From: Mytilus trossulus
Taxonomy: Eukaryota
Assembly: GCF_036588685.1 (NCBI RefSeq)
Contig: NC_086386.1
Location: forward strand, 39,742,001-39,806,000
Direction of reading: 5' to 3'
DNA: 64,000 bases
In this document: in pieces, positions 9,821 to 61,648 of the stretch
Numbering within the stretch: the stretch's first letter is position 1
How the letters are laid out: every line of letters starts with the position of its first letter
Notes under the pieces: generated by a model
Told to the model about the DNA's origin: nothing
The model's input: only the letters and a program-made list of their open reading frames with translations
Databases searched by the model: none
Made by a program: the position numbers and the translations under genes

Positions 9821-12800
9821 ATGGATAAGGGATCACCAAATCCACAGTCGCAGCCTCAACAACAGTACGGCCAACCTCCACAGCAGTATGGTCAGCCTCC
9901 ACAACAGTATGGTCAGCCTCCACAACAGTATGGTCAGCCTCCACAGCAGTATGGTCAACCGCCACAGCAGCATGGTCAACCTCCACAGCAGTATGGTCAA
10001 CCGCCACAGCAGCATGGCCAACCGCCACAGCAGTATGGTCAACAACCCCAACAGCATGTCCAACCTCCAAACCAGTACGGCCAGCCTCCACCAGGTAAAC
10101 AGTCAGCTTTTATATGTTATTTTTGTTTAATTTTCGAACAATTTTCTACATTAATGTCAATAGAATTGTATATTGGTTCGTTTTCCGTTTTATTAAACGT
10201 GTACTACTATAACGACAGTAAATTGTTGAAAGGTGGAAAAAGGACATGAATTTAGAATTTTATCTACTAGTATACGCTTTATTAAAGGTATTAAGTCGGT
10301 CGACATGAAGTTTAGTTAAATGTTAAAATTTTAAATAACTGTTCACCCAAGACTTTTATATGAAAATATTATAGTTGACACTGTACACAAAACAATATAT
10401 CATATGGTTCCAGGTCGTTCTTCCTTCAATAATGACCCAAAACCTGTACCACATAGCCAGCGATACAATGCCCCGAAAAAAACCAAATGTTAAACATTTT
10501 AAAAGAGAAAACTAACGGCTTCATTTGTATACAAAACAATGAACAAAAAAAATAATATGATATAAAGAATCAAAGTGAATAAACTGTGTCTCTTTAACGA
10601 AAAAAACAACCACACAAAAGCTAAAGCGCGATTGAGATCCACACTGACCAAACTTAAACTTTTGTCTTTACAATATTTAAAGAGAACACAAATGACTGAA
10701 CAGCGAACGTCATAATGAGTTAAACCTTCAAATTAAGTAAACCACCATTGATAACAATAATTATGATATATGGTTATAAAAGAATGTAAAATTTCTGACT
10801 ACAAAGAAATGAAATTGTATGAGTTATATTTTTTAAATCCATTACTTTGCATTAGGAAAAAATGTTTGTCGAACAAGAAGTCAAACAAGAAGCACTAATT
10901 GGCTAAACTTAGTACACATGTTCCCTATGATATATGATCTTTCCAATCTAATTAAAATATTGATCTCTGATTACGTTATTAAAATATTGATCTAATCAGA
11001 GATCAATATTTTAATTAGATTGATGATCTTTCTAATTTTAATGCCAAATTAGCGGAGATTTTACCCAAATTTCACGGTTCACTGGACATAGAAAATTATA
11101 GTGTGGGTGCATCCGTGTACTTGGGACATATTTTGAATACAGGTATTATACCTGAAAATTGGACTTCTGGTATTATTAAACCAGTTTTCAAAAACAAGGG
11201 TTGTAAAATTGATCCTGATAACTATAGAGCAATTACGCTCATCAGTTGCCTTGGGAAACTTTTCACATGCATTTTAAATACTAGACTGAATATTTTTTCT
11301 AATGAACTGAATATTATATCTGAGAACCAGACTGGATTCCGTAAGGGATATTCTACACAAGATAATATTTTTGTATTACATGCACTTATTGAACTGTATT
11401 TTTCTTTTGGGAAGAAACTCTTTTGTACATTTGTGGATTTTAGAAAGGCATTCGATACTGTTTGGCGTACAGGGCTGTGGAAAAAATTACAAAAAAGTGA
11501 AATCAAAGGGAAATGTTTTAAAGTTGTGTATAATATGTACAGTGGCATTAAGTCTTGTGTTCAATTTAATGACTCTCAGTCAGAATTCTTTCCATGTCTA
11601 ACAGGTGTTAGACAGGGGACCTGTTAGACAGGGGGAGAATTTATCACCTTTTCTCTTCTCGATCTTTTTAAATGATCTTGAAGACTATTTTTGTCAGCTT
11701 GATGGACTTCCCTTAGAATTAGTTAAAGAGAAACTTGAAAGTGAATTACATATTTTTTATAAAATTTTCATTGTATTATATGCTGATGACACAGTTATCT
11801 TAGCAGAGAGTAAAGATAGTTTACAAAAAGCACTTGATGTATTTCAGTCTTATTGTTCATTGTGGAAACTACAAGTAAATGTAAATAAAACCAAGGTTAT
11901 CATCTTTTCTAAAAGAAAAGTAAACCACAATTTAAGTTTTACATTACAAGGTCATATTCTTGATATTGTAGATACATACCCTTACCTAGGTGTTATATTT
12001 AAATATAATGGTACATTTATTGAGACAAAAAAAAACCTTGTAGAACAAGCAGAAAAGGCAATGTTTTGTGTTTATAAACTTATCAGAAATGAGTCTATAC
12101 CTGTTGATATCCAATTAAAGCTTTTTGATTCGATGATAGAACCAATTTTATTGTATGGTTCAGAAATCTGGGGATAGTACGAAAACCTCAAAACTATTGA
12201 GCAAATCCATTTGAAGTTTTGTAAAAGAGTACTCAAAGTAAGGAACACTACGCCAAATTTTATGGTTTTAGGTGAGCTTGGGAGATTTCCCCTCGAAATT
12301 AAAGTTAAACTTAGAATGGTATCATTCTGGACAAGACTTGTACAAAATGATACTAAACTAAGTAGTATTTTATATCAACTGATGTTATCCTTACAAAGTA
12401 AAACTAAAAATACCTTCAAATGGATTAAATATGTAGAAACTATTTTTGATGAAGTTGGGATGAGTTACATTTTTAGCTCACCTGGCCTAAAAGGCCATGT
12501 GAGCTTTTCTCATCACTTGGCGTCCGTCGTCGTCGTCGTCTGTCGTCGTTAACAATTTTTCAAACATCTTCTCCTCTGAAACTACTGAATGGATTTGAAT
12601 GAAACTTAGCATGATTGTTCCTTAGATTATCCTGCACAAAGTGTGTGCTTTGATTTATGATCCGTCAAAAAACATGGCCGCCGTTACTTAAAATAGAACA
12701 TAGGGGTCAAATGCAGTTTTGGCTTATATCTCAAAAACAAAAGCATTTAGAGCAAATCTGACATGTGGTAAAAATGTTCATTAGGTCAATATCTATCAGC

Positions 12801-15800
12801 CCTGAAATTTTCAGATGAATCAAACAACCAATTGTTGGGTTGCTGCCACTTAATTGGTAATTTTAAGGAAATTTTGCAGTTTTTGGTCATTATCTTGAAT
12901 ATTATTATAGATAAAGATAAACTGTAAACACCAAAAATGATCAGCAAAGTAAGATCTACAAATAAGTTAATATGACCAAAATTGTCAATTGACCCCTTGA
13001 GGGGTTATTGTCCTTTAATGACAATTTTTCACAATTTGTTCATCATATTTGCTAACTTTAAAAAATCTTCTCCTCTAAAACTACTCAACTAAATTCAACC
13101 AAACTTCAACTGAATGATCAGTAGGGTGTATAAAATAAAGTTTGTGCTTTATTTTCTATTTCGTCAAAAAACATGGCCGTCATGGCTAAAAAAAGATCAC
13201 AGGGTAAAATGCAGTTTTTGGCTTATATCTCAAAAACTCCAGCATTTAGAGCAAATAAGACAATATGTTAAAGTATTTATTAGCTCAAGGTCTACCTGTC
13301 CTGTAATTTTCAGATGAATTGGGTAACTGGTTTTTCAGGTATAATGCCCCTGAATTGATGATTTTAAAGAAATTTTGCAGTTTTTGGTTATTATCTTGAA
13401 TACTATTATAGATACAGATCAACTGAACATTTAAATAAATTGAAAAGCCAAAATAATCACTGATGAGAGATTTAACCAAAAAAATTAAGGTGAGCGATTC
13501 AGGCTCTTGAGAGCCTCTTGTTAAAAACCAGTATGCATTTTGTGATAAAATTGTTGTGAAGCAAATTTTATGTGATCAGTTTATACAAAAGTGGTATAGT
13601 GATATACAAAGTTCCTCCCGTGGCCTCTTTTATTCGATGTTCAAAAAACAGTTTTGTTTGGAAAATTACTTATTGAGACTTAGTGAGTTTAATCGAACGT
13701 GGTTAACCAAACTGCGTACATCTAATTTACATTTACCTATAGAAACTGGTCGTTGGTTCAATATCCCAAGGGAAGAAAGAACATGTAACTTATGTACAAA
13801 TGGTATTGGAGATGAATTCCATATTATGTTTATATGTAAAAATGAAAATATTGTTTTATTAAGAAACAAGTACATACCTATGTACTACACAGCTCACCCG
13901 AGCATTATCAAGTTTGAAGGTTTACTCTCTTATTGTAATACTGAACTATACAAAAAGCTATCATTGTTCATCAGAAAAGTTAATGTATTTCTTTGATTTA
14001 TGTCATATCGATCCATATATATTGTATATCTTTTTCTTTATAATCATTCTCTCTGTTTGGTTCTAATGAGCTGTATATATTGATTTAAATATGTTTAATC
14101 GTTCTTCTGTCATGTTGTTTGCATATATTGTATTATATATTTGACCTCATGTTACACGTTTATATGTGTCTGAGTGTTTTCTAATAAATCGTTAAATCGT
14201 TAAATCGGGACACATTCTTGTTTTAATTAGATGGACATTTAGACTAAACAATAAAGAACAGTTCACTTTTACTCTGCTCAAATAAGAAAAAGAAAATGCC
14301 TACCTACCTACCTACCCAACCACTGTCTTTAACTTTGATAAGGAATTGAGCAAACCTACATCATTTTTAAGTGTGGCCTGGTCATCTTCTTAATTGATAT
14401 TTTTTACCGAAAAAAAGGTACGAAAATGCAAACACTGTATTTCTAAAATAGAACTAAATATCCCAAATGCCATATACCTCAGAATTGGAAAAACATATGC
14501 ACATATTCCGTTATAACATTATAGATAAAATATATTTTTTAAATAAGGAGATGGTATAATGGCAAATGAGAAAATAATGCATCACAAACCAAAAGACGAG
14601 AAGCTGATTGTACGGTATGGGATTTGCTCATTGCCGTAGCGTCATGATTAACTATAATTGTGTTCATCATCCCTCATAGTCGAAGACCTCATTGTGACAT
14701 ACATTTTATGTACATGCTTGCCATCCTTTGGTAACTGTTGGTTATTGCTCATTGTCGAAGGCCTCATGGTGACCTATAGTTGCGTACATCATTGTCATTA
14801 TTAGTATCTGTTGATTACTGCTCATTGACAATTATACCACATTTCCTTATTTTTATATTGAACTTTCATTGTTTCATTACAAGATTTCAAGATTTCAAGA
14901 TTTTATTGTACACTCTGACAGTTTACACGGTTACAAGAGGCAGATATACATAATATACAGCTTGACAGAAGTGGTATAAGATTTGTATAATAACAGAATA
15001 AAATTGAAATAAACATATATACAGGTCAATTGAATATAGGTCATCAAACACACCGTAACATACGGTTGTTTGACACGTGATTTAAACGATCAAAACAAAT
15101 TCACATAGCATGACATACATACATATATATATATTTAATTAATTAATATGATTAATTGGATTATAACACACAACTTGAATTAGGTAAGTACTAGACAGTT
15201 TCTTTGATCAAAAATACTTCATGATTTTTTGCAAAAATAATGCGACATTATTGAGTACTTTTATATTACAATAGTATAGCAAACCAAAGAGCTTGTCCTC
15301 TGTTGGATTAAAAAAATAATATCTTGGTATATGCATTTTTCTAATTCTTGCAATATTAGGGTTACAACATACTAGCAGATAATGAAATTCATTTCCTATC
15401 ACCCCCATTACAAGCACACATACAACACAATATCCTAAATATTACAGATTCATGTTTTGTACATTTTAATATATTCACAGCTTACGGTGGTGGGCAGCAG
15501 CAACAGACGTCAACAGTTGTGGTTGGACAGCCGCAGACTTTAGTGTTACAACAAACATACAGAGATTCACCAGTACGTACGACGTGTTCATCATGCAATG
15601 CAGATGTAATGACAGCCATTTCATTTGAAGTAGGAACGATGGCTTGGATAGTGGCGGGATGTCTCTGTATATTTGGGTATGCTATATTGAATGAATAATA
15701 AAACACCATATTCGACTAGTCAGACAAGTTCAACCAACAAAATGCTACAGCATTAAATTTTCAAAGTAAATAGATATAAAAAGATGTGGTATGAGTGCCA

Positions 15801-17229
15801 ATTTTACTCGATCTTCATCAAAGTCACAATTTGTCAAAAGTATACACGAAGCCTCTTTCAGCTATATATCTGTGATGGTATCGACAATAAAATTCAAAGA
15901 TCCATTTTGAAAAAAGGGGTCCAGATGAACATGCCAGACTTATATGTACACCATACCATCATTCCAATACACTAAGTATAGTGGACTATTTGTGCCGAAT
16001 AGTATCCGAGAAACAGAACGTATCATGAAAACTAAACATGTCTGCTCTTTTGTCGGGTTGTTGTCTCTTTGCCACATTCCCCATTTCCATTCTCAATTTT
16101 CTTGACAAAGGAACCATGATTAATGAGCTCTGTCAGACAAATATTTACATCTTCCAATCATATCATACACTTGGCATATTGAAGTATTGGCCATAGTACA
16201 TAAGAGTGGACTAGATCTCAAAAATATAGTATTGACAATTGAACCATGAAAATTCGGTCATGATAAAACGCCAAACGAAAACCACTGCCACCGGATTATC
16301 ATCGCTAAGTCTCGCTTTCTGCGAGTTTGTCTGAAGCGAGAGAGAAACTGAAAAACTAAAAAAAAAAAAAAAAACAACAACAAAAACATGCACTCACATA
16401 ATAAGAATTAAAATATAAAACTGAGATAAGGCGCACACAGTCTGTTTGTGTACCTTGGGTATAGAAAATTATTTGAATTTAAATTGATAAATGTTTTGAA
16501 CTCAGAAATTCAAACCCCCGTTAAATATATATATTCTATACCCAAGGTACACAAACAGACTGTGTGCGCCTTATCTCAGTTTTATATTTTAATTCTTATT
16601 ATATATTTATATATTTATGTCCTTCACTTATATATGAATGGTAGGTGGTTTTAGATCTTAGTATTGAGAAAAATAAATTTGTCTATAAATTGTTTTCAAT
16701 CAATTATTAAAATTATTCAATCATTTATTGAAGTTATTCAATCAATTATTAAAATCATTGAAATAAATTACTTTGCCGTTCAAGGTACATCGTATCCAAT
16801 CTATCTAAATACCATTGCATACTTCTAAAGTGCATTTGGTTAAATGTACCCGATTTACCATATATCATGGTTGAACATTGGGGTCTAATCAAGGATTTTA
16901 AATTAGGGGACTAAAGCGTATATTTCCGTATATTTCCCCCGAGCGAAGAAAGTAAATACAAAAGTTTTGAAGAAAAATTATAGAAATATTCTTTATTAAG
17001 CAAAGAACAACCCATATACCTTTTTCAAAATTAAGGAGGGCACAACGTCACACATACCAGGCCCCGTCTTAATCCACCCCTTAACATTGTATAATCATTT
17101 ATTTGCCTGTTTTTTTTTTGTAGATTTTGGCTTTGTTGTTTTATTCCATTCTGTGTTGACGGCTGTAAGGATGTTGTTCACACTTGTCCAAACTGTAACC
17201 ATATGGTGGGAAGGTTCAACAGAATGTGA
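9821..17229 (+). CDS. LITAF: LITAF-domain protein 1, 191 aa; join(9821..10094,15481..15676,17124..17229)
   Basis: GT-AG junctions give a 576-nt open frame: MDKGSP..(QQYGQPP)x11..[67 protein letters not shown]; AATAAA ~130 nt after the stop. The symbol denotes family, not orthology. Confidence 0.92.
10944..11022. mobile_element. 79-bp mini inverted-repeat element
   Basis: 30-bp TIR CAATCTAATTAAAATATTGATCTCTGATTA; flanking direct repeat ATGATCTTTC; a solo end recurs at 35883-35912. Confidence 0.7.
11129..14206 (+). mobile_element. 5'-truncated LINE (RTE-X/CR1-group-like RT) in intron 1 of gene 1
   Basis: ORFs 11103-11627, 11605-12177, 12211-12470 and 13556-13996 ([47 protein letters not shown]); 3' tail (TAAATCGT)n; probable TSD GGGACA. 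Confidence 0.9.
12473..13522 (+). mobile_element. Helentron-associated (HINE/DINE-like) element nested in the LINE
   Basis: Starts TTAGCTCACCT, (GTC)n microsatellite, subterminal inverted GGTGAGC, 3' hairpin GAGGCTC-type (AGGCTCTTGAGAGCCT), inserted in a T run; LINE coding sequence resumes after it. Confidence 0.85.
14884..15405 (-). mobile_element. LINE 3' end fragment
   Basis: ORF with [11 protein letters not shown] motif; (AATCTTGA)n tail; TSD CATTACAAG at 14875-14883 and 15406-15414; absent in the gene 2 intron. Confidence 0.82.
16398..16602. mobile_element. MITE with ~70-bp inverted arms
   Basis: ATAATAAGAATTAAAATATAAAACTGAGATAAGGCGCACACAGTCTGTTTGTGTACCTTGGGTATAGAA and its reverse complement; only the left arm survives in the gene 2 copy (~26744-26810). 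Confidence 0.75.
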
Positions 17230-19052: not shown

Positions 19053-22000
19053 ATGGATAAGGGATCACCATATCCACAGTCGCAGCCTCAACAACAGTAC
19101 GGTCAACCTCCACAGCAGTATGGTCAGCCTCCACAACAGTATGGTCAACCACCACAGCAGTATGGTCAACCGCCCCAACAGTATGGTCAACCGCCCCAAC
19201 AGTATGGCCAGCCACCAGGTAAGAAGTCAGCTTTTATATATTGTTTTTTTTTTTATATTTTGAACCATTTTGTACAGTTATGTTGAATTAGAATTGTATA
19301 TTGTTTCGTTTTCCGTTTTATTAAACTTGTACTACTATAACAACAGAAAAATGTTGAGAGGTGAAAAATAGGGACATGGATTTGTTTTTATCTACTTGTA
19401 TACACTTTATTAAAGGTATTATGTCGGTTCGTCGACATGAAATTTATCAAATATTCAAGTTTTAAATACTGTTCATCCCAACCATTCAGATGAAAATATT
19501 AAATATGACACTGTTTAATGCAATATATTGAATGGAACAATTGTGTTCCTCTTTCAACAATGAGCAAGACCTTTACCGCATTTATACTCGTCAGCAATCA
19601 AATAAATTTCAAACAGTTCAAATGAGAAAACTAACTGCCTGATTTATGCATAAAACAATGAACGAAACACAGATATGATATCAAGCAATACAGTGTGTCA
19701 TTGTAAAAATAAAAAGAACTCAAAAGCAAAAGTGCGTTTGAGATCCATACCGACCAACTTAAACTTATTCCTTTATTCAATGGGGGAAAACTAACTGAAC
19801 AATGTACGTCATATGATAATGAGTTTAAACCTCCAAAATTAACCACCATTGCTGACAGTATAATTATGATATATTATGGCTACATAAGAATTAAAAATTT
19901 AATGCGATATAGAAAGGAAATTATATGAAGACTGTGTTATAACTTTAAAATCAATTACTTTACATAATGACACATTACTTGTTGAACAAGAAGCAATAAA
20001 TGGTCATTCACTATATATTCGCACAACATCCTGTCCACAAGTTAACAATTTTTTTTTTCTTTCTGTGACGTATTAAATTTATAATAAGATCCATTTTGTT
20101 ACAACCTGTGATCAATTTTATTTGGCAATCGCCAATGGCAGTCAGCAGGGTTAAAGAACATCAGTTGTTCGACCCGTTAGTCAAATGCGTTTTGTTTAAA
20201 TATACTTTTTCACTCTTTTGGTCTTTTGGAAAATGTTGTTTGTGCTGTTTTTAGACCCTTCTACAACGAAATTTGTTTGACATGCACACGTATAAAAATT
20301 GCGGTTTTTATCCAACGCAGTCATAGGTTTGAACGTAGTTTTCAATTTAGACTCGTTTATATTTTTTGTTTGGGCATGTATCATATTTTCCCTCCGGTTT
20401 ATATGATCCGTTCATCCTATATATTGACTCTTAAAATTCAAGAGTTAATCTAAAAATGAGGGTACTTTCTCTAAAAATGAGGGTGCTTTTTATATGGCCT
20501 TCCAAATACCGTTTCGATCCCTAACATCACTGAAGAGACATTTATTGTCGAAATCCGGATATGGTGTACTAAAGAAATATTGACACCGAATGTTTGTGGC
20601 ACAACATCCTGTCCACAAGTTAACAATTTTTTTTTTCTTTCTGTGACGTATTAAATTTATAATAAGATCCATTTTGTTACAACCTGTGATCAATTTTATT
20701 TGGCAATCGCCAATGGCAGTCAGCAGGGTTAAAGAACATCAGTTGTTCGACCTGTTAGTCAAATGCGTTTTGTTTAAATATACTTTTTCACTCTTTTGGT
20801 CTTTTGGAAAATGTTGTTTGTGCTGTTTTTAGACCCTTCTACAACGAAATTTGTTTGACATGCACACGTATAAAAATTGCGGTTTTTATCCAACGCAGTC
20901 ATAGGTTTGAACGTAGTTTTCAATTTAGACTCGTTTATATTTTTTGTTTGGGCATGTATCATATTTTCCCTCCGGTTTATATGATCCGTTCATCCTATAT
21001 ATTGACTCTTAAAATTCAAGAGTTAATCTAAAAATGAGGGTACTTTCTCTAAAAATGAGGGTGCTTTTTATATGGCCTTCCAAATACCGTTTCGATCCCT
21101 AACATCACTGAAGAGACATTTATTGTCGAAATCCGGATATGGTGTACTAAAGAAATATTGACACCGAATGTTTGTGGCACAACATCCTGTCCACAAGTTA
21201 ACAATTTTTTTTTTCTTTCTGTGACGTATTAAATTTATAATAAGATCCATTTTGTTACAACCTGTGATCAATTTTATTTGGCAATCGCCAATGGCAGTCA
21301 GCAGGGTTAAAGAACATCAGTTGTTCGACCTGTTAGTCAAATGCGTTTTGTTTAAATATACTTTTTCACTCTTTTGGTCTTTTGGAAAATGTTGTTTGTG
21401 CTGTTTTTAGACCCTTCTACAACGAAATTTGTTTGACATGCACACGTATAAAAATTGCGGTTTTTATCCAACGCAGTCATAGGTTTGAACGTAGTTTTCA
21501 ATTTAGACTCGTTTATATTTTTTGTTTGGGCATGTATCATATTTTCCCTCCGGTTTATATGATCCGTTCATCCTATATATTGACTCTTAAAATTCAAGAG
21601 TTAATCTAAAAATGAGGGTACTTTCTCTAAAAATGAGGGTGCTTTTTATATGGCCTTCCAAATACCGTTTCAATCCCTAACATCACTGAAGAGACATTTA
21701 TTGTCGAAATCCGGATATGGTGTACTAAAGAAATATTGACACCGAATGTTTGTGGCACAACATCCTGTCCACAAGTTAACAATTTTTTTTTTCTTTCTGT
21801 GACGTATTAAATTTATAATAAGATCCATTTTGTTACAACCTGTGATCAATTTTATTTGGCAATCGCCAATGGCAGTCAGCAGGGTTAAAGAACATCAGTT
21901 GTTCGACCTGTTAGTCAAATGCGTTTTGTTTAAATATACTTTTTCACTCTTTTGGTCTTTTGGAAAATGTTGTTTGTGCTGTTTTTAGACCCTTCTACAA

Positions 22001-25000
22001 CGAAATTTGTTTGACATGCACACGTATAAAAATTGCGGTTTTTATCCAACGCAGTCATAGGTTTGAACGTAGTTTTCAATTTAGACTCGTTTATATTTTT
22101 TGTTTGGGCATGTATCATATTTTCCCTCCGGTTTATATGATCCGTTCATCCTATATATTGACTCTTAAAATTCAAGAGTTAATCTAAAAATGAGGGTACT
22201 TTCTCTAAAAATGAGGGTGCTTTTTATATGGCCTTCCAAATACCGTTTCGATCCCTAACATCACTGAAGAGACATTTATTGTCGAAATCCGGATATGGTG
22301 TACTAAAGAAATATTGACACCGAATGTTTGTGGCACAACATCCTGTCCACAAGTTAACAATTTTTTTTTTCTTTCTGTGACGTATTAAATTTATAATAAG
22401 ATCCATTTTGTTACAACCTGTGATCAATTTTATTTGGCAATCGCCAATGGCAGTCAGCAGGGTTAAAGAACATCAGTTGTTCGACCTGTTAGTCAAATGC
22501 GTTTTGTTTAAATATACTTTTTCACTCTTTTGGTCTTTTGGAAAATGTTGTTTGTGCTGTTTTTAGACCCTTCTACAACGAAATTTGTTTGACATGCACA
22601 CGTATAAAAATTGCGGTTTTTATCCAACGCAGTCATAGGTTTGAACGTAGTTTTCAATTTAGACTCGTTTATATTTTTTGTTTGGGCATGTATCATATTT
22701 TCCCTCCGGTTTATATGATCCGTTCATCCTATATATTGACTCTTAAAATTCAAGAGTTAATCTAAAAATGAGGGTACTTTCTCTAAAAATGAGGGTGCTT
22801 TTTATATGGCCTTCCAAATACCGTTTCGATCCCTAACATCACTGAAGAGACATTTATTGTCGAAATCCGGATATGGTGTACTAAAGAAATATTGACACCG
22901 AATGTTTGTGGCACAACATCCTGTCCACAAGTTAACAATTTTTTTTTTTCTTTCTGTGACGTATTAAATTTATAATAAGATCCATTTTGTTACAACCTGT
23001 GATCAATTTTATTTGGCAATCGCCAATGGCAGTCAGCAGGGTTAAAGAACATCAGTTGTTCGACCTGTTAGTCAAATGCGTTTTGTTTAAATATACTTTT
23101 TCACTCTTTTGGTCTTTTGGAAAATGTTGTTTGTGCTGTTTTTAGACCCTTCTACAACGAAATTTGTTTGACATGCACACGTATAAAAATTGCGGTTTTT
23201 ATCCAACGCAGTCATAGGTTTGAACGTAGTTTTCAATTTAGACTCGTATATATATATATATATATATAAAAGTCTATAAAAAGGACCAACCAGCAAATTT
23301 AGTAATTTACTATGTACCGGATCGTCTAGAATAGGCGATACTATGCATGCAGATAAGGAAAAAAATATATCAGTCTAAAGATTTGCACAACGGTACTGAT
23401 ATAAGGTGTTATTAAACGAAAATGTTGTTATAAAATCGTGTTGACAAATATTTCGGCTCAACAAATGGCCTTCTTCTTGTGTCACAAGTTTTAACAATAC
23501 TCCTAAATGTATACGGTATAGGGTTTGATCGTTGTCGAAGGCCTCGCTGTGACCTATATGTGTGTACATCATTGCTCATTGTTGAAGACCTAATGGTTAC
23601 CAATAGCTATGTGCATCCTCGCCATCTTTTTACTGTTGGTTATTGTTCATTGTCGAAGGCCTTATTGTGACCTATAGTTGGGTACATTCTAACCGTTCTT
23701 TGGACACTGTTGCATAGTTATATTGGTCATTGTCGAAATCCACATGGTGACCTATAGTTGTGTAAACCCTCACCAGCCTTTGGTTTGGTAACTTTTGATA
23801 ATTGCTTATTGACAATCAAATCACATCTCCTAATTTTATATTGAGCTTTCATTATGTGTTATTGGTTAACTGTACACACAAACACACGACACGACACAAA
23901 GTCCTAAATATTACAGATTTTTAAGAATCATGTTTTGTACATTTTAATATATTCACAGCTTATGGTGGTGGACAGCAGCAACAGTCGTCAACAGTTGTGA
24001 TTGGACAGCCGCAGACTTTAGTGTTACAACAAACATACAGAGACTCGCCAGTACGTACGACGTGTCCATCATGCAATGCAGATATAATGACAGCCATTTC
24101 ATTTGAAGTAGGAACGATGGCTTGGGTAGTGGCTGGTTGTCTCTGTATATTTGGGTATGCTATATTGAATGAATAACGCACCATATTCGCATCGGCGGAT
24201 CCAGGGAAAATGGGGAAATTGGTTGATTATTAGTATATAGGGAATCACTTAGCATGACTGGAGCACCTTCCCCCCTTTAGGTCAGTCAGCGCTCCCCCCT
24301 TTATGAAAAGTTCTGGATACGCCACTGATTCGTCTTGTAAGATATGTTCTGTAATCAAAATACTTCAACAGGAAATTTTCAAAGTAAATAGATATAAGAA
24401 GATGTGGTATGATTGCCAATTATAGACAACTCGATCTCCTTCCAGGTCACAATTTTTCAAAAGTACACGGAGCCTATGTGTATTAATATATCACTGGCAA
24501 TCGTGTTGTATCAGCTATATACTCTGTGATGAGCACTGGCAATCGTGTTGTATCAGCTATATATCTGTGATGATATCGACACAAGACCTAGCCAAAAAAA
24601 ATCAAAGATCACTTTTGCAAAAAAGGGTCCAGATGTATACATGCCAGACTTATAAATGTAAATGTACACTATACCAATACACAAAATATAAAGTGGACTA
24701 TTTTGTGGATAAAATCCAAGAAACATAACTTAAAATGAAAACTAAACATGCCTGCTCTTTGGTCGGTTGTTGTCTCTTTGACACATTCCCCATTTCCATT
24801 CTCAATTTTATTGACAAATGAACGATAAATGAGCTCTGTCAGACAAATATGTACATCTTCCATTCATTCTATACACCTTGACATATTGAACTATTGGCCA
24901 TTGCACACAATAGTGGACTAAAATTTAACTACATTCAAGTCCATCCGCTCCACAGAGAGTCATATAGTACATAAACATATCACAACCACATCAAAGCTTC

Positions 25001-27205
25001 TTGTGAACATTTGAAGGTCACTACTATGTATTGGCTACCTTAACTACATGTACACAAGCAACCAATTAAATATCGTTTTATCTCGGCTTCTAGTAAGTGT
25101 TCTACAACTAATCTTTCAGTGCTTTTAACAAGTTCATTAACTACTATTAAAGAACTTATCATACACTATTGTAATAAAATATATGAACATAGTGGTATAT
25201 AAACTATATTTGGAGTGTAAGAAATTCTTTGGATGTTTTAGATAAAGTACGTGCTTTTGATGGTCCTTTTGATTCCGTGGACAGTTTTGATTTTTCTACT
25301 CTTTACACTACACTTCCACACTATCTTATTAAACAAAGGTTTCCTATTTAATGAAATGGTCGTTTGGTTAGTTAAGCTGAATGCAAATATATTTTCTGCA
25401 ACTCATTTAAACCCTTCTCCTCTAATGAGAAAGGTAAATACGCTAGATATACTTACTGGAGGTGTGATGAGATCATTTAAGCTGTTAATTTTCTTCTTGA
25501 TAATATTTATGTACGTTTCGGCAACAAAGTTATTCGACAGGTTGTAGGTATCCCCATGTGCACTAATTGTGCCCTTTAATAGCAGATTTGTTTTTGTACT
25601 GTTACGAATCAGTTTGTGACTAAACTCAGTAAAGACTCGTCGAAATTGCATTTAATTGATAAATTCAACAACATTTACCGTTATCTTGATGATATTTTTT
25701 CGTTAAATAATCAAGAATTTTCTCAATATACTGCTGAAATTTACCCCAAGGAACTTACTTTAAATGAATCAAATTTATACGGTAATAACTGTCCTTTCCT
25801 GGATTTAGATATTTAGGTTTTAAACGGGAAACTCCATACTAAAATTTACGACAAAAGGGACGTTTTTTCGTTCCCTATTGTTAATTTTCCATTTTTAGAT
25901 GGTGAGGTGCCTTTGGCACAATCTTACGGTGTTTATATTTCACAGCGCGTTCGCTATGCCCGTGTCTTGTGACGTTTTTGATTTTAACGAACGCAATCTA
26001 TGTATTACTGGTAAATTATTAAACCAGGGATATCGTTACCATAGATAACTTAAAACCTTTACGAAATTTTTCCATAGATATAAAGATTAGGTTTTGAAGT
26101 TTGGTTGTACCTGTAAAATACTTTTTTCAAACGGGATAGCACATCCTCATTTTTACGGAAGTGTTGTTAACCGGACCCGAAAATTTGTCCATCTGATGAG
26201 TTAAGCCTTTTTCAGCTGCTTTTTATAGTTCGACTGTTATACCACTGTACCAGGTTAGGGGAGGGTTTATATATGTGCCTGTCCCAAGTCAGGCGCCTGT
26301 AATTCAGTGGTTGTCGTTTGTTAATGTGTTACATATTTGTTTTTCGTTCAATTTTTATATAAATAAGGCCGTAAGTTTTCTCCTTTAAATTGTTTTACAC
26401 TGTCATATTGGGGCCTTTTATAGCTGACTATGCGGTTTTGGATTTGCTCATTGTTGAAGGCCGTACGGTTACCTATAGTTGTTAATGTATGTGTCATTTT
26501 GATCTCTTGTAGACAGTTGCCTCATTGGGAATCATACCACATCTTCTTTTGTTATAAATCACAAAAATATAGTATTGACAATTGAACCATGACAATTAGG
26601 TGACGATAAAACGCCAGACGAAATTTACCGCCACCGGATTATCATCGCTATGTCTTGCACTCTGCGATTTTGTCTGAAGCGAGAGAAAAACTGAAAAAAA
26701 AAGAAAAAAAAAAACCAACAAAAAAACCCCAACAATACTCACATAATGAGAATTAAAATATTAAACTGAGATTGGCCGCACACAGTCTGTTTGTGTACCT
26801 TAGGTATGGAAATTATTTCAATTTACATTAATAATTGTTTTGAAATTTATCAATATAGACTAAGTTTTATATATGTAACACCTTAACAATAGCAAGTTAG
26901 GGGATGCAAACTTATATTTTCGACGAGCTGAGCGAGTCAAAAACAAAATTTGAAGTAAATTTATAGAAATGTTCTTTATTAATCAGAGGACAACACATGT
27001 ATTGCAAATTTTAGGAAGGCGGATAGCTGCCACGCCCCTGCCTGAATCCGCGCATGAACATTGTACAATCAATCATTTGTCTGTCTTTTCTTGTAGGTTA
27101 TGGCTCGGATGTTGTCTGATTCCATTCTGTGTTGACGGCTGTAAGGATGTTGTTCACACTTGTCCAAACTGTAATCATATGGTGGGAAGGTTCAGCAGAA
27201 TGTGA
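19053..27205 (+). CDS. LITAF: LITAF-domain protein 2, 156 aa; join(19053..19218,23959..24154,27097..27205)
   Basis: 471-nt open frame with GT-AG junctions: MDKGSPYP..(QQYGQPP)x6 [60 protein letters not shown]. Confidence 0.92.
20021..23247 (+). repeat. 578-bp tandem array, ~5.6 near-identical copies, retrozyme/PLE-like
   Basis: Unit start GCACAACATCCTGTCC recurs at 20021, 20599, 21177, 21755, 22333 and 22911; ends in a (TA)n run; each full unit has a hammerhead core. Confidence 0.97.
20524..20567 (+). ncRNA. Minimal type I hammerhead ribozyme (copy 1 of 5; others 21102-21145, 21680-21723, 22258-22301, 22836-22879)
   Basis: ACATCA-CTGAAGA-GACA tttat TGTC-GAAA-TCCGGA-TA^-TGGTGT: stem I, CUGANGA, stem II, GAAA, palindromic short stem III, AUA cleavage triplet. 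Confidence 0.85.
24190..24327. mobile_element. MITE, CAGTGGCGGATCC-type TIR with 5-bp TSD
   Basis: ATTCG on both flanks; empty site with a single ATTCG in the gene 1 paralogous intron (~15710). Confidence 0.8.
24925..26185 (+). mobile_element. Penelope-like retroelement reverse transcriptase remnant
   Basis: Disrupted frames contain MYWLP.LH..PIKYRFISASSKCST, GIPMCTNCA, YRYLDDIF and PFLDLDI motifs typical of PLE RTs; absent from the gene 1 paralogous intron. Confidence 0.8.
26186..26555. repeat. Abundant short interspersed repeat (copies or fragments also near 14610, 23510, 39035, 58980, 60760)
   Basis: Recurrent core TTTGCTCATTGTTGAAGGCCGTACGGTGACCTATAGTTG...CTCATTGGCAATCATACCACATCTTC; class not determined. 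Confidence 0.75.
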
Positions 27206-28523: not shown

Positions 28524-30644
28524 TAACATCAACACCGTTAAAATTGCCATATAAAGTACGAAGTTGATGAAGAACATTGCAAACTTATCATCTAACGTAG
28601 AAATTTGACAAAACATGTTCACTGCATAATATAGTCTGAAGATGAATGCAAACAAATTTGAAACTAGCATATACAAACTTATCCATGCAGACCAGTTTAT
28701 TTAACAATTTTAATTTTGACTTCATGTCACCTTTCATTTTGATAAAATTTAACCTTTTCCTTTTTTTTTGTATCTTAACCTTTTCTTATTTTAATTTTTG
28801 TATCTTAACATTTTCCTATTTTTTTGTATCTTAACCGTTTCCTATTTTTTTTTGTATCTGTAAAACAATACACGAATGAACGACTTTATTTGCTAACACA
28901 CCAAGTGGCCAATATTTAAAGCCTTTTCGGAACAAAGTTAAACATTTCAATGCTAAATTTGTCAGTATAAACATAACCAAACATTAGTATAGACAGAACC
29001 ATCAGTTAGTATATAGAAATAACCAGTGGTCAGTACATAGACATAACCAACAGTCTTTATAGAGATAGAACCAACTATCAGTATAAAGACAGAACCAACT
29101 ATCAGTATAAAGACAGAACCAACTGTCAGTATAAAGACAGAACCAACAGTCAGTATATATAGATAGAACCAATTGTCAGTATATAGACAGAACAAACAAT
29201 CAGTACATAGACAGAACCAACAGTCAGTATAGATAGAATCAACTGTCAGTATAAAGACAGAACTAGCAGTATAAGTATATAGACAGAACCAACTGTCAGT
29301 ATAAAGACAGAACCAACAGTCAGTATATAGACAGAACCAACAGTCAGTATATAGACAGAACCAACAGTCAGTATAAAGACAGAACCAACAGTCAATATAT
29401 AGACAGAACCAACAGTCAGTATATAGACAGAACCAACAGTCAGTATATAGACAGAACCAACAGTCAGTATAAAGACAGAACCAACAGTCAGTATATAGAC
29501 AGAACCAACAGTCAGTATATAGACAGAACCAACAGTCAGTATGAAGACAGAACCAACAGTCAGTATATAGACAGAACCAACAGTCAGTATATAGACAGAA
29601 CCAACAGTCAATATATAGACAGAACCAACAGTCAGTATATAGACAGAACCAACAGTCAGTATATAGACAGAACCAACAGTCAGGATAAAGACAGAACCAA
29701 CAGTCAGTATAAAGACAGAACCAACAGTCAGTATAAAGACAGAACCAACAGGCAGTATATAGACAGAACCAACAGGCAGTATATAGACAGAACCAACAGT
29801 CAGTATATAGACAGAACCAACAGTAAGTATATAGACAGAACCAACAGTCAGTATAAAGACAGAACTACCTGTAAGTATAGAGACATATCCAACTGTCATT
29901 ACAGATATAACCAACTATCAGTATATAGACAGAACCTACTGTCAGTACATATACATAACCAACTATGAGTATAGTATAACAAAGTTTATTGACAGAACCA
30001 AGTATCAGTATATAGACGAACGAACTATCAGTATAGACAGAACTAACGGTCAGTAAAGACAGAATTAACTGTCAGTATAGACAGAACCAACTCTCAGTAT
30101 AGACGGAGATGGAACCAACAGTTAGTACAGATAGAATCAACTGTCAGTATATAGACTGAACTTACAGTCATTATATAAATAGAACCAATAGCCAGTATAT
30201 AGACAGAACCATCAGCCAGTAAATGGACAGCACCAACTATCAGTACATCGACAGAACCAACTATCAGTACATAGACAGAACCAACTATCAGTACATAGAC
30301 AGAACCAACTATCAGTACATAGACAGTACAAACTGTCAGTATAAAGACAGAACCAAAAGTCAGTACATATAGAAAAAACTGTCAGCATAGACAGAACCAA
30401 GTCAGTACATAGACAGAACCAACAGTCAGAAAATAGACAGAACCAACAGTAAGTAAGTAGACAGAACCAACAATCAGTATGTAGACAGATCGAACTGTAA
30501 GTATAGACAGATCGAACTGTAAGTATAGACTGAATCAGCTGTACATAAAATTGAGAATGTATCAAAGAGACAACAGCCCGACCATAGAAAAAAAACCAGC
30601 AGAAGGTCACCTACAGGTCTATATATATATATATATATATATAT

Positions 30645-31449
30645 GATAATTTAGCTGATCTGTAACAATAACATCTTCATGCCTTATATATCATGTACTG
30701 TAGTACGCCGCTAGATTAAAACTGACGTGGAAAGGTAACACATGCCCACCGAGAGCTCTTTTTTTTGAGAGCCTAGGTGGTCGTGTGGTCTAGCGGGACG
30801 GCTGCAGTGCAGGCGATTTGGTGTCACTATATCACAGTAGCATGGGTTCGAATCCCGGCGAGGGAAGAACCAAAAATTTGCGAAAGCAAATTTACAGATC
30901 TAACATTGTTGGGTTGATGTTTAGACGAGTTGTATATATATATATATATATATTGCGAAAGCAAATTTACAGATCTAACATTGTTGGGTTGATGTTTAGA
31001 CGAGTTGTATATACATTATGTACACAGCCATGTATCACCATCATTGATGGCGATCCGATGGATACATCTGTTGTAGAGTTGTCACTTACTCAGACGTACT
31101 TATGCATATAATTATTTTCTGTGACTGTATCTTACATTAATTTGTAGGATCCTTTACTATAGATAATTTAGCTGATCTGTAACAATAACATCTTCATGCC
31201 TTATATATCATGTACTGTAGTACGCCGCTAGATTAAAACTGACGTGGAAAGGTAACACATGCCCACCGAATGCTCTTTTTTTGAGAGCCCAGGTGGTCGT
31301 GCGGTCTAGCGGGACGGCTGCAGTGCAGGCGATTTGGTGTCACGATATCACAGTAGCATGGGTTCGAATCCCGGCGAGGGAAGAACCAATAATTTGCGAA
31401 AGCAAATTTACAGATCTAACATTGTTGGGTTGATGTTTAGACGAGTTGT
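30645..31449 (+). mobile_element. (TA)n-embedded ~441-bp partial-tandem element with tRNA-like head
   Basis: Two segments separated and flanked by (TA)n; A-box-like TGGTCGTG(T/C)GG and B box GGTTCGAATCC at 30771-30866 and 31287-31382. Confidence 0.7.
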
Positions 31450-33320
31450 ATATATATATATATATATATAGACATACCAAACAGTCAGTAAAACTAGACC
31501 CAACAGTCAGTATAGGTTCCCAAACTGTTAATATTGACAGAACTAACTGTTAGTATAGACAGAACCACCCGTAAATATAGACAGAACCATTTTACATTCT
31601 ATTTAAAATAAGATTTATACTTTTTCTTAATGGGTGTTTCTGAAAAAAAACCAATTTATGAATGAACGACTTTGTTGTGGCCAATATTTAAGGACTATTC
31701 GGAACGAAATTAAACATTTCAATGCTTTATTAGTATAGACAGAATTAACCTACAGTATAGACAAAACCAACTGTCAGAATAGACAGAACTAACTGTCAGA
31801 AAAGACAGAACTAACTGTCAGAATAGACAGAACTAACTGTCAGAAAAGACAGAACTAACTGTCAGAATAGACAGAACTAACTATCAGAATAGACAGAACT
31901 AACTGTCAGAATAGACAGAACCGATTATCAGAATAGACAGAACCAACTATGAGAATAGACAGAACTAACTATCAGAATAGACAGAACTAACTATCAGAAT
32001 AGACAGAACTAACTATCAGAATAGACAGAACCAATAGTCAGTATACAGACTGAACTAAAAGTCAGTATGTAGACAGAAACAATTGTCAATATATAGAAGA
32101 TTCAACAGTAAGTAAAAAAGAACCATGTGTCTTTATGTATATAGAACCATCAGTTAGCACGTATGGAACCAAGTTCAGTATATAGACAGAACAAACAGTC
32201 AGTATATAGACAAAACTAAGTCAGTCAAGATAGACCCAACAGTTAGTACAGGTAGAACAAACTATCGGTATAGATAGAACAAACAATCAGTACAGATAGA
32301 ACAAACAATCAGTATTGACAAAACTTACTGTTTGTATAAACAGAACCAACTGTTAGTATAGACAGAACCAACTGTAAATATAGTTACATTTTGTTTTAAA
32401 TAAGATTTTACCTTTTTCTTAATTAGTGTATCTAAAAAAAACAATATATAAATGAACGACTTTTTTTGCCTAAACAAACAGTGACAAATAATAAAGGACT
32501 ATTCTGAACGAAGTTAAACATTCCATAGCTTTATTTGTCAGTAAAGACAGAACCAACTGTCAGTATAGACAACACCAACTATCAGTATAGACAGAACTAA
32601 TTATCCGTATAGAAAGAACCAACAGTCAGAATACAGATAGAACCAACTGTCAGAATATAGACAGAACTTACAGCCAGTATATAGACAGAACCAACTGTCA
32701 GTATATAGAAGATGCAGCAGTCAGTATAGAAGGAACCAATTGTCAGTATATAGACAGAACCAACTGTCAGTATATAGACAGAACAAACAGTCAGTATACA
32801 GACAGAACCAACTGTCAGTAAATAGACAGATACAACAGTCAGTATATATAGATATAACAAATTGTCATAGACAGAAACAATTATCAGTATATGGACAGAA
32901 CCAACAGTCACTATACAAACAGAACTTACTTTCAGTACATAGACAAAACAAACAGTTAGTTTAAAAACATAACCAAACAGTCAGTATATATAGATGAAAC
33001 AAATTGTCAGTACATAGACAGATCCAACAGTTAGTTTATAGACAGAACCAACAGTCAGCACATATAGAACCAACAGGCAGTATATAGACAGAAACAACAG
33101 TCAGTACATAGACAGAACAAACATGTAGTATAAAGACAGAACCAATTATTAGTATAAAGACAGAACCAACTGTCAGTATATAGACAGAACCAACAGTCAG
33201 TATATAGAAATAACCAACTATCAGTATATAGAAATAACCAACTATCAGTATAAAGAAATAACCAACTATCAGTATATAGAAATAACCAACTATCAGTGTT
33301 TAGATAGAACAAACAGTCAG

Positions 33321-33479
33321 CAGGCGCGGATCCAGCCATTTAAAAAGGGGGGGGGGGTCCCAACCCAGAGTAAAGGGGGGGGGGTCCAACATTATGCTCC
33401 CATTCAAATGCATTGATCAGCCAGAAAAAAGGGGAGTTCCAACCCCCGGACCCCCCCCCCCCTTTTGGATCCGCCACTG
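33321..33479. mobile_element. MITE with 5-bp TSD inserted in the minisatellite
   Basis: CAGGCGCGGATCC...GGATCCGCCACTG flanked by GTCAG. Confidence 0.78.
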
Positions 33480-34082
33480 GTCAGTATATAGACAGAACCA
33501 ACTATCAGTATATAGACAGAACCAACTATCAGAATATAGACAGAATTAACTATCAGTATATAGACAAAACCAACAGACAAAACAGATAAAACTAACCGTC
33601 AGTATACCCTGGTCTTATTAACGGTAAATTTGTTACAAAAAGGAAATAAAAAGATACTTTGTTTCCACTGAAAACTAAGGTTTAAATAATTACATGTACT
33701 AGAATTAAATTTCGAAATGTTCCTACATTTGATTAAAAAAAAGTATCTGGAAATAAATAATACAGAAATGTTTGTTCCGAGACAAAACCTATATGCCCCC
33801 ACAACAAATGAATAGTCAACTCTAAGAATGGAGTTTATCATCAACAACAAACATATTAAATTTAAATGTCTACAAAGGAGGGTATTTTCAAGGGGAATCA
33901 TGTGAAAATCATATCAAGTGAATCACTCAAACATTTCAAAACATTTAATACGTGAACTTTAAACAGACCTTTACTGTAGCACCTACGTAACCATCTAACT
34001 CGGTCGAGATAAGATAAGCTTTATTGTTTAAACTGAAAGGACGGGAAAAAAGGGAATCACAGTTAGGATTAAAGCTTCAAAT

Positions 34083-40684: not shown

Positions 40685-45459
<4,775 letters not shown>

Positions 45460-61300: not shown

Positions 61301-61552
61301 AAATGAGAATATTTGACCTTGTCAGTGTGAATATTTGACCATGTCAATGTGAATATTTGACCTTTTTAATATGAGTACATGCATTTGACCTTGTTAATTA
61401 GAGTACTTGACCTTGTTAACACATGTCTGTGATAATATCGTTTCAGGTTCTGGTTATGCTGTATCATCCCCCTCTGTATTGATTCCTGTAAAGATGTAAC
61501 ACACACGTGCCCTAACTGTAGACATGTTGTGGGGAAGTTTAGCCGAATGTGA
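55342..61552 (+). CDS. LITAF: LITAF-domain protein 5, 109 aa; join(55342..55354,59507..59717,61447..61552)
   Basis: Exons 2-3 are clear: APPPYGPPSYPQG..SPVRIQCPACKADVMT..LFFTGFWLCCIIPLCIDSCKDVTHTCPNCRHVVGKFSRM*. The 13-nt first coding exon (CAAAATGGAAGCGCAAG|GTAAGA, phase 1) is less certain. Confidence 0.85.
60335..60492. repeat. ~158-bp hairpin at the end of an unclassified intronic element
   Basis: GAAATAATTCATGGGGGCTTGAATATAT...ATATATTCAAGCCCCCATGAATTATTTC. Confidence 0.75.
61150..61420. repeat. Degenerate ~20-bp minisatellite (ATATTTGACCTTGT core)
   Basis: More than 10 TTGACCTT-like cores immediately upstream of the gene 5 exon 3 acceptor. Confidence 0.75.
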
Positions 61553-61648
61553 TAGCACGTGCCCTAACTGTAGACATGTTTTAGGGAAGTTTAGCCGAAT
61601 GTGATAACACGTGCTCTAACTGTAGACATGTTGCTGGAAAGTTTAGCC
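61504..61648 (+). repeat. 52-bp tandem triplication spanning the gene 5 stop codon
   Basis: CACGTGC(C/T)CTAACTGTAGACATGTT..AAGTTTAGCC starts at 61504, 61556 and 61608. Confidence 0.92.

What the first reader, a model, noticed from the sequence alone, without database searches (positions are those of the whole stretch)
19053..27205. Host pre-mRNA of LITAF gene 2 would carry five self-cleaving sites
The ribozyme array lies on the coding strand of intron 1, while near-identical paralog gene 1 lacks it. Inference: co-transcriptional cleavage could attenuate gene 2, or the LITAF promoter could drive retrozyme RNA production. The gene 1/gene 2 pair is a natural control.
Basis: inference. Interest (0 to 1): 0.7.

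Follow-up and report, generated by a model that had tools for sequence, protein, structure and literature searches.

The report
Retrozyme array in one LITAF allele
Five hammerhead self-cutting RNA motifs lie on the transcribed strand of an intron of a LITAF gene, but they belong to a young, abundant jumping repeat that a second copy of the same gene in this assembly lacks, so they are likely a slow-cutting passenger, and the two gene copies would allow a direct test.

Summary
A 3,226-bp array of 578-bp units (20021-23246) puts five type I hammerhead motifs, predicted cuts after 20561+578n, on the sense strand of the first coding intron of LITAF gene 2. The array is one insertion of a young dispersed family: 2,190 exact ribozyme cores genome-wide, a fixed 3' end at (TA)n and variable 5' ends. 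It is retrozyme-like, likely copied by a Penelope-like element. Gene 1 is a poor control: its introns are 71-87% identical and it carries its own LINE. A better control is in the same assembly. Contig C26, colinear and ~97% identical (likely the other haplotype), has gene 2 without the array and differs at two exon-2 SNPs. Attenuation is unshown and probably small: the cleavage triplet is AUA, reported as slow, and helix III is minimal. However, five sites with in-cis dimer partners could cut 43% of transcripts at a related family's published rate. No RNA from the array-bearing haplotype was seen, and no daughter copy was found. This scan has already reported this family, and sense-intronic retrozymes, on other DNA of this genome.

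The parts
19053..19218 (+). LITAF gene 2, first coding exon (PPQQYGQ repeats)
   Evidence: its end is joined to exon 2 in contigs of X8 and X13
19219..23958 (+). first coding intron of gene 2 (4,740 nt, GT-AG)
20021..23246 (+). retrozyme-like array: 5.6 units of 578 bp, 34% GC, no stop-free frame over 90 aa; 5' end at unit position 38, 3' end at position 373 followed by (TA)n
20524..20567 (+). hammerhead 1: helix I 6 bp, core CUGAAGA, helix II 4 bp, GAAA, palindromic helix III, AUA triplet, predicted cut after 20561
21102..21145 (+). hammerhead 2, predicted cut after 21139
21680..21723 (+). hammerhead 3, predicted cut after 21717 (one private change just upstream)
22258..22301 (+). hammerhead 4, predicted cut after 22295
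22836..22879 (+). hammerhead 5, predicted cut after 22873
23247..23268 (.). (TA)n target microsatellite at the fixed 3' end of the array
   Evidence: sequence; same junction at other loci
23269..23502 (.). piece of another dispersed repeat, absent from the C26 copy
   Evidence: high contig depth in DNA runs; alignment gap against C26
23959..24154 (+). gene 2 exon 2; differs from the C26 copy at 23963 and 23987 (markers for allele-specific assays)
24921..26554 (+). decayed Penelope-like RT fragment in gene 2 intron 2; absent from gene 1, present in the C26 copy
   Evidence: RT motif recognised by eye, no Pfam hit
27097..27205 (+). gene 2 last coding exon
9821..17229 (+). LITAF gene 1 (exons 9821-10094, 15481-15676, 17124-17229; 191 aa); no array
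11019..13993 (+). broken LINE-type RT element on the sense strand of gene 1's first coding intron; confounds the paralog comparison
   Evidence: RVT_1, E 1e-17 and 3e-15

Best explanation
The array is a recent copy of an abundant hammerhead-bearing repeat, absent from the second gene 2 copy on contig C26; it likely arrived by reverse transcription at a TA microsatellite and likely cuts too slowly to change LITAF gene 2 output much. Shown: the motifs, their sense orientation in a spliced intron, the family size, the fixed 3' end with ragged 5' ends, and the array-free copy. Inferred: (1) a Penelope-like RT/endonuclease nicks (TA)n, starts at a fixed internal point of the RNA (unit position ~373) and copies repeatedly round a monomer circle or along a multimer; (2) Pol II from the LITAF promoter reads through the array; (3) the weak helix III makes neighbouring copies pair through the 8-nt palindrome, and the AUA triplet keeps the rate low, so most transcripts reach exon 2 uncut; (4) later cleavage of the pre-mRNA or the excised intron would release some 578-nt monomers (four per transcript at most) that a host ligase could circularise.
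For: Family: 2,190 exact 35-nt cores, control 0; 233 matches in the 39 of 415 candidate regions scored, the 150 listed at 98-100%. Fixed 3' end: 22 of 23 arrays in 21 loci and 18 of 21 array pieces in 15 further loci; 5' ends scattered. An array-wide private marker occurs in 8 of 15 arrays with >=3 units; mean difference is 1.7 within and 3.2 between arrays. Array-free copy: C26 is colinear, 93-98% identical over the long gene 1-gene 2 blocks, with no unit hit in 50 kb. One of two distant C26 probes also maps to C14 about 2 Mb on (the other was swamped by repeats). One X4 contig follows the left flank to 20018 and then runs 43 letters unlike the array. Slow cleavage: AUA is reported as slow (PMC3138052 passage); minimal Penelope-type hammerheads show low activity even as dimers (PMC4209133 passages); slow intronic ribozymes are reported not to affect splicing (PMC10919898 passages). 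Helper: an RT family with a C-terminal endonuclease-like domain ends at TA runs in 14 of 15 copies, and 5 of 29 non-seed loci from that search hold the unit within 1.5 kb. Internal initiation is shown for a Penelope-like element in vitro (PMC11167929).
Against: No rate was measured. At 0.1/min, the in vitro rate of the 350-390-bp mussel family (PMC7229834), and an assumed 2 kb/min, 43% of transcripts would be cut before exon 2; at 0.01/min, 5%. Tandem copies supply dimer partners, which raised activity in axolotl retrozymes (PMC7229834). The AUA variant is the most numerous (2,190 against 519), so if spreading needs cleavage it must cut to some degree. No sequence is shared between the unit and any candidate helper, so the helper rests on shared targets only. 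Private markers can also spread by DNA-level duplication, which a 40-kb array shows; 7 of 15 arrays, this one included, have no marker. That C26 is allelic is inferred, not phased.
Confidence: 0.68

Rival explanations
1. The array is a real cis-attenuator: five ribozymes acting as dimers cut a large share of nascent transcripts before exon 2 is made, so the array allele gives clearly less LITAF gene 2 mRNA.
For: All five cores are intact and on the sense strand. They lie 1.1-3.4 kb before the 3' splice site, and summed exposure gives 27-67% cut at 0.1/min for 3.5-1 kb/min. The palindrome duplex is -10.9 kcal/mol and is kept by a double change in a sister subfamily. CPEB3 is a precedent (PMC10919898). 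All four runs laid on exon 2, two of them guessed RNA, carry the non-window letter at 23963, so nothing seen shows the array allele spliced.
Against: AUA triplet; low activity of minimal hammerheads; the borrowed rate is from another family, in vitro at 37 C. The two DNA runs also lack the window's letter, so its absence in RNA reflects genotype rather than silencing.
Confidence: 0.17
2. The locus is an important source: the LITAF promoter drives a major share of 578-nt circles, which reinsert elsewhere.
For: Retrozymes are said to lack promoters and rely on read-through (PMC7761336 passage). Gene 2 is spliced in other individuals. The array holds four complete monomers.
Against: One of the four monomers carries a private change. 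12 other places carry it, but all differ from that monomer at 7 or more other positions or are diverged fragments, so none is a daughter. Three monomers are unmarked and cannot be traced. Hundreds of other loci exist (100 cores in 39 loci on the first 94 Mb of C1, counted), and a 40-kb array holds 5 of 42 units identical to this one.
Confidence: 0.07
3. The AUA ribozymes are practically dead in vivo, and the arrays are multimeric read-through templates or DNA-level satellites; the pre-mRNA is not cut at all.
For: AUA triplet. AUA cores sit in longer runs (100 in 39 loci on C1) than cores with another N17 (45 in 36 loci). DNA-level expansion is visible in the 40-kb array. No Rfam hit.
Against: The core is unchanged in 84 of 96 full units over its last 42 nt, and most changes spare the catalytic bases. 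All three helices covary. Array-wide private markers fit a monomer stage. The run-length contrast is confounded by age.
Confidence: 0.08

Closest known systems
Metazoan non-LTR retrozymes, Mytilus galloprovincialis 350-390-bp repeats (Cervera and de la Pena 2020, PMC7229834; read parts 1-4 of 6; supplement not readable)
   Same: Non-coding, AT-rich tandem repeats with one type I hammerhead per unit, thousands of copies, no LTR features
   Different: The unit is 578 bp (paper: 150-450 bp in general, 350-390 bp in mussel), the triplet is AUA, and insertions have a fixed 3' end at (TA)n. Circular RNA was not shown here. The paper's two mussel ribozyme families could not be compared because the supplement was unreadable.
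Minimal hammerheads of Penelope-like elements (Cervera and de la Pena 2014, PMC4209133; passages)
   Same: Helix I 6 bp, helix II 4 bp, short palindromic helix III predicted to need a dimer
   Different: No RT ORF belongs to the array
Non-autonomous Penelope-like elements and TA-targeting Naiad/Neptune elements (Craig et al. 2021, PMC8557442; passages)
   Same: Head-to-tail copies, 5' truncation, microsatellite targets, no discernible target-site duplication
   Different: No shared sequence with 10 Naiad-search loci or with the elements in 30 loci of the second RT search; Naiads lack hammerheads
CPEB3 intronic ribozyme (Chen et al. 2024, PMC10919898; passages)
   Same: Self-cleaving motif on the sense strand of an intron, racing Pol II to the next exon
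   Different: CPEB3 is a single conserved HDV-like ribozyme with a measured half-life of 2-3 min; this is a young mobile array missing from the second gene copy

Membership tests
type I hammerhead ribozyme | core CUGANGA ... GAAA ... UH | tested here: met
   all five copies; the triplet is AUA
type I hammerhead ribozyme | helices I-III, with helix I open | tested here: met
   39 of 39 cells paired, 5 of 13 pairs changed on both sides, but only 3 sequences
type I hammerhead ribozyme | match to an Rfam hammerhead model | tested here: not met
   the GUC motif at 42927 was missed as well, so the models seem blind to these minimal forms
type I hammerhead ribozyme | self-cleavage | not testable with these tools
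   only assembled contigs were available
metazoan non-LTR retrozyme | dispersed non-coding tandem repeats, GC below 45-50%, one hammerhead per unit | tested here: met
   (34% GC, longest stop-free frame 90 aa)
metazoan non-LTR retrozyme | monomer of about 150-450 bp | tested here: not met
   578 bp; a descriptive range in the paper, which also mentions circles of 150 to over 1000 nt, so filed as a longer family
metazoan non-LTR retrozyme | expressed as linear and circular monomer RNA | not tested
   no RNA run was laid on the full unit, and contigs cannot tell a circle from a tandem
metazoan non-LTR retrozyme | signs of retrotransposition (fixed 3' end, 5' truncation, empty sites) | tested here: met
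   array-free copy, though that copy holds a different insert at the site
autonomous Penelope-like element (array as its pseudo-LTR) | RT-endonuclease ORF flanked by the repeat in a fixed arrangement | tested here: not met
   no consistent ORF beside the arrays in 35 loci; where an ORF is near, the unit lies on either side and strand, separated by TA runs
domesticated intronic regulatory ribozyme (CPEB3 type) | fixed and conserved at the orthologous site | tested here: not met
   absent from the C26 copy and from gene 1
domesticated intronic regulatory ribozyme (CPEB3 type) | measured effect on host mRNA | not testable with these tools
   no RNA from the array-bearing haplotype was found

The most novel reading that the evidence does not exclude
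A segregating retrozyme insertion acts as a natural loss-of-expression allele of a LITAF gene: five in-cis dimer hammerheads cut the nascent intron, lowering mRNA from that allele and releasing circles under the host promoter. With hundreds of such arrays per genome, retrozymes would be a general source of cis-regulatory variation in mussels, measurable within one heterozygous animal.
Probability: 0.17. Interest if true: 0.65.

Novelty: new member of a known kind. Interest (0 to 1): 0.3.

Why it matters
The element type is known, and this scan has met both this family and sense-intronic copies before, so the locus is not surprising. Its value is as a test bed. What retrozymes do to genes they land in, and whether host promoters are their source, appear unmeasured in the papers my searches returned (open library only). 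Here a small, expressed gene has an intact five-ribozyme allele and a likely array-free allele with identical protein and exonic SNPs in one assembly, so a single allele-ratio assay would answer the question.

Tried and rejected
Rfam: no hammerhead hit. Folding argument that the ribozyme is blocked by an upstream complement: predicted, but the penalty (3.6-8.3 kcal/mol) equals that of the GUC family used as control (3.9-8.8), so it was dropped as evidence. The monomer's fold is not unusual (z -1.55). Naiad start hairpin reported by earlier notes for the 355-bp family: no match to this unit in 10 loci, best E 0.055 (one of the ten had an unrelated longest ORF). Gene 1 as control: rejected. Empty site from reads: one informative contig in 1 of 4 DNA runs, while contigs of the other three stop short of the junction; the right junction was unresolved because the tool skipped the repeat. 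Enrichment of 5' ends at the cut site: about 5 of 21 loci by eye, post hoc, not used. Cryptic splice or poly(A) signals in the unit: no GTRAG donor, no strong acceptor, no AATAAA, one ATTAAA per unit. C26 probe at 1.5 Mb uninformative. Genome-wide orientation bias of intronic arrays could not be tested without annotation. The supplement of PMC7229834 could not be read and may hold this ribozyme family. PMC7653742 and the other papers were seen as listings only, except passages of PMC3308963.
Full report
Observation. The window holds five LITAF-like genes. Gene 2 has coding exons 19053-19218, 23959-24154 and 27097-27205. Contigs of two runs guessed to be RNA (X8, X13) join its exon 1 end to exon 2 and exon 2 to its own exon 3. 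In the first coding intron lies a 3,226-bp array of 578-bp units, 20021-23246, with two substitutions among the full units. Each unit has a type I hammerhead on the + strand: helix I of 6 bp, core CUGAAGA, helix II of 4 bp, GAAA, an 8-nt palindromic helix III and an AUA triplet, with N17 at 20561+578n. Rfam misses it. Among three variants (this one, a sister subfamily, and the motif at 42927) all 39 cells pair, and 5 of 13 pairs change on both sides. The organism is likely a Mytilus mussel; that label is my inference plus the wording of earlier scan notes, not a tool result.

What the array is. The exact 35-nt core occurs 2,190 times in the 1.3-Gb assembly (control 0), and 519 times more with another base at N17. 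On the first 94 Mb of C1, 100 cores fall into 39 loci (my count), which scales to roughly 500-900 loci. Arrays end at one unit position (~373, about 200 nt before the next cut site) followed by (TA)n. This holds for 22 of 23 arrays in 21 loci picked for high identity and 18 of 21 pieces in 15 more loci; 5' ends are scattered. This is the pattern of target-primed reverse transcription with internal initiation, as shown in vitro for a Penelope-like element (PMC11167929, abstract and first part of the main text). After masking two slippery tracts, 8 of 15 arrays with three or more units carry a marker in every unit and in no other array; mean difference is 1.7 within and 3.2 between arrays. That fits copying round one monomer circle. 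A 40-kb array on C14, however, shows higher-order DNA duplication, and the marker of one array occurs in 19 of its 42 units, so the test is suggestive only. The closest described family is the mussel non-LTR retrozyme (PMC7229834, parts 1-4 of 6), whose units are shorter; its supplement could not be read.

Helper. The unit shares no sequence with 10 loci from a Naiad-type RT search (N-terminal GIY-YIG) or with a second RT family. Copies of the second family end at TA runs in 14 of 15 cases (11 directly, 3 after a short tail), and 5 of 29 non-seed loci of that search carry the unit within 1.5 kb. By eye its protein has a cysteine linker before a C-terminal endonuclease-like domain, as described for Neptune and Nematis (PMC8557442, passages); I built no tree. 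Naiads also favour (TA)n, so the helper remains open.

The control. Gene 1 matches gene 2 at 164/166, 185/196 and 99/106 aligned exon bases, but it is 35 aa longer. Its aligned intron pieces are 71-87% identical, its upstream DNA matches only in patches, and it has a 3-kb broken LINE on the sense strand of the same intron. Gene 2 has a further RT fragment in intron 2. A difference in expression could therefore not be assigned to the array. A search with the left flank found a second copy on contig C26. C26 is colinear with the cluster, 93-98% identical over the long gene 1-gene 2 blocks, and has no unit hit in 50 kb. A probe 2.8 Mb further along C26 maps about 2 Mb further along C14 (a second probe was uninformative), so C26 is likely an unpurged second haplotype. 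Its gene 2 has identical exons 1 and 3, two substitutions in exon 2, 22 in the 3' region and 4 upstream, and a different ~760-bp insert at the same intron spot; the protein is unchanged. One contig of DNA run X4 follows the left flank to 20018 and continues for 43 letters unlike the array; the other three DNA runs are uninformative. All four runs laid on exon 2 carry C26's letter at 23963, not the window's. No data from the array-bearing haplotype were seen.

Effect on the host. The outcome is a race between cleavage and Pol II reaching exon 2 (PMC10919898, passages, which cite Fong 2009 for fast ribozymes blocking splicing and slow ones having no effect; I did not read Fong 2009). The five sites lie 3,397 to 1,085 nt before the 3' splice site. 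With assumed elongation of 2 kb/min, 5% of transcripts are cut at 0.01/min, 15% at 0.03/min and 43% at 0.1/min; the last is the published in vitro rate of the shorter mussel family. For a lower rate: AUA is named as up to orders of magnitude slower than GUC or GUA (PMC3138052, one passage), minimal hammerheads are weak even as dimers (PMC4209133, passages), and mussels live well below 37 C (general knowledge). For a higher rate: neighbours supply the dimer partner, the palindrome duplex is -10.9 kcal/mol, and it is kept by a double change in a sister subfamily. A predicted blocking helix did not survive its control. I put a small effect at about 0.7 and clear attenuation at about 0.17.

Source locus. 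Read-through from a host promoter is the published model (PMC7761336, passage). One of four releasable monomers has a private change. It occurs at 12 other places, all otherwise diverged, so no daughter was found; the other three monomers cannot be traced. LITAF transcripts are reported as abundant in mussel hemocytes, gill and digestive gland (PMC3308963, passages), but not for this paralog.

Verdict. The feature is real and belongs to a longer family of a known kind of element. Earlier notes of this scan already describe the 573-576-bp TA-inserted family and several sense-intronic retrozymes judged to be passengers. What this locus adds is an array-free copy of the same gene with exonic markers, which makes the host-effect question directly testable. 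Interest 0.3.

Noticed in passing
G000:C26:405000-450000 versus window 7686-52700: An unplaced 4.3-Mb contig is colinear with C14 and ~97% identical here, likely an unpurged haplotype; many inserts differ between the two copies, including two multi-kb inserts in gene 1 intron 1.
   Followed up: partly
window 42846-43005: A 160-bp fragment of another hammerhead family (GUC triplet, core at 42927) is absent from the C26 copy.
   Followed up: partly
G000:C14:22045897-22086484: A 40-kb array of the same unit (42 full units, 5 identical to the window's) with a ~1.08-kb insert at unit position 90 repeated eight times: higher-order DNA expansion and a possible master locus.
   Followed up: partly
genome-wide: Cores with AUA are four times as many as cores with other N17 bases (mostly AUC in the rows listed) and sit in longer runs (2.6 versus 1.25 per locus on C1); a slower ribozyme may favour long insertions, or this may be age.
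   Followed up: partly
L125-L144: Several Penelope-like families with hammerhead-like motifs in the 3' UTR end at (TA)n and cluster with this repeat and with a common inverted-repeat element: TA runs act as nested landing sites.
   Followed up: partly
window 9821-61650: A cluster of five LITAF-like genes; the last is followed by ~52-bp tandem copies of the end of its final exon (61503-61648).
   Followed up: no
window 23380-23500, - strand: A decayed hammerhead-like motif in the repeat fragment right of the array, seen by eye.
   Followed up: no
window 28988-33574: A long 22/24-bp minisatellite that is much shorter in the C26 copy.
   Followed up: no
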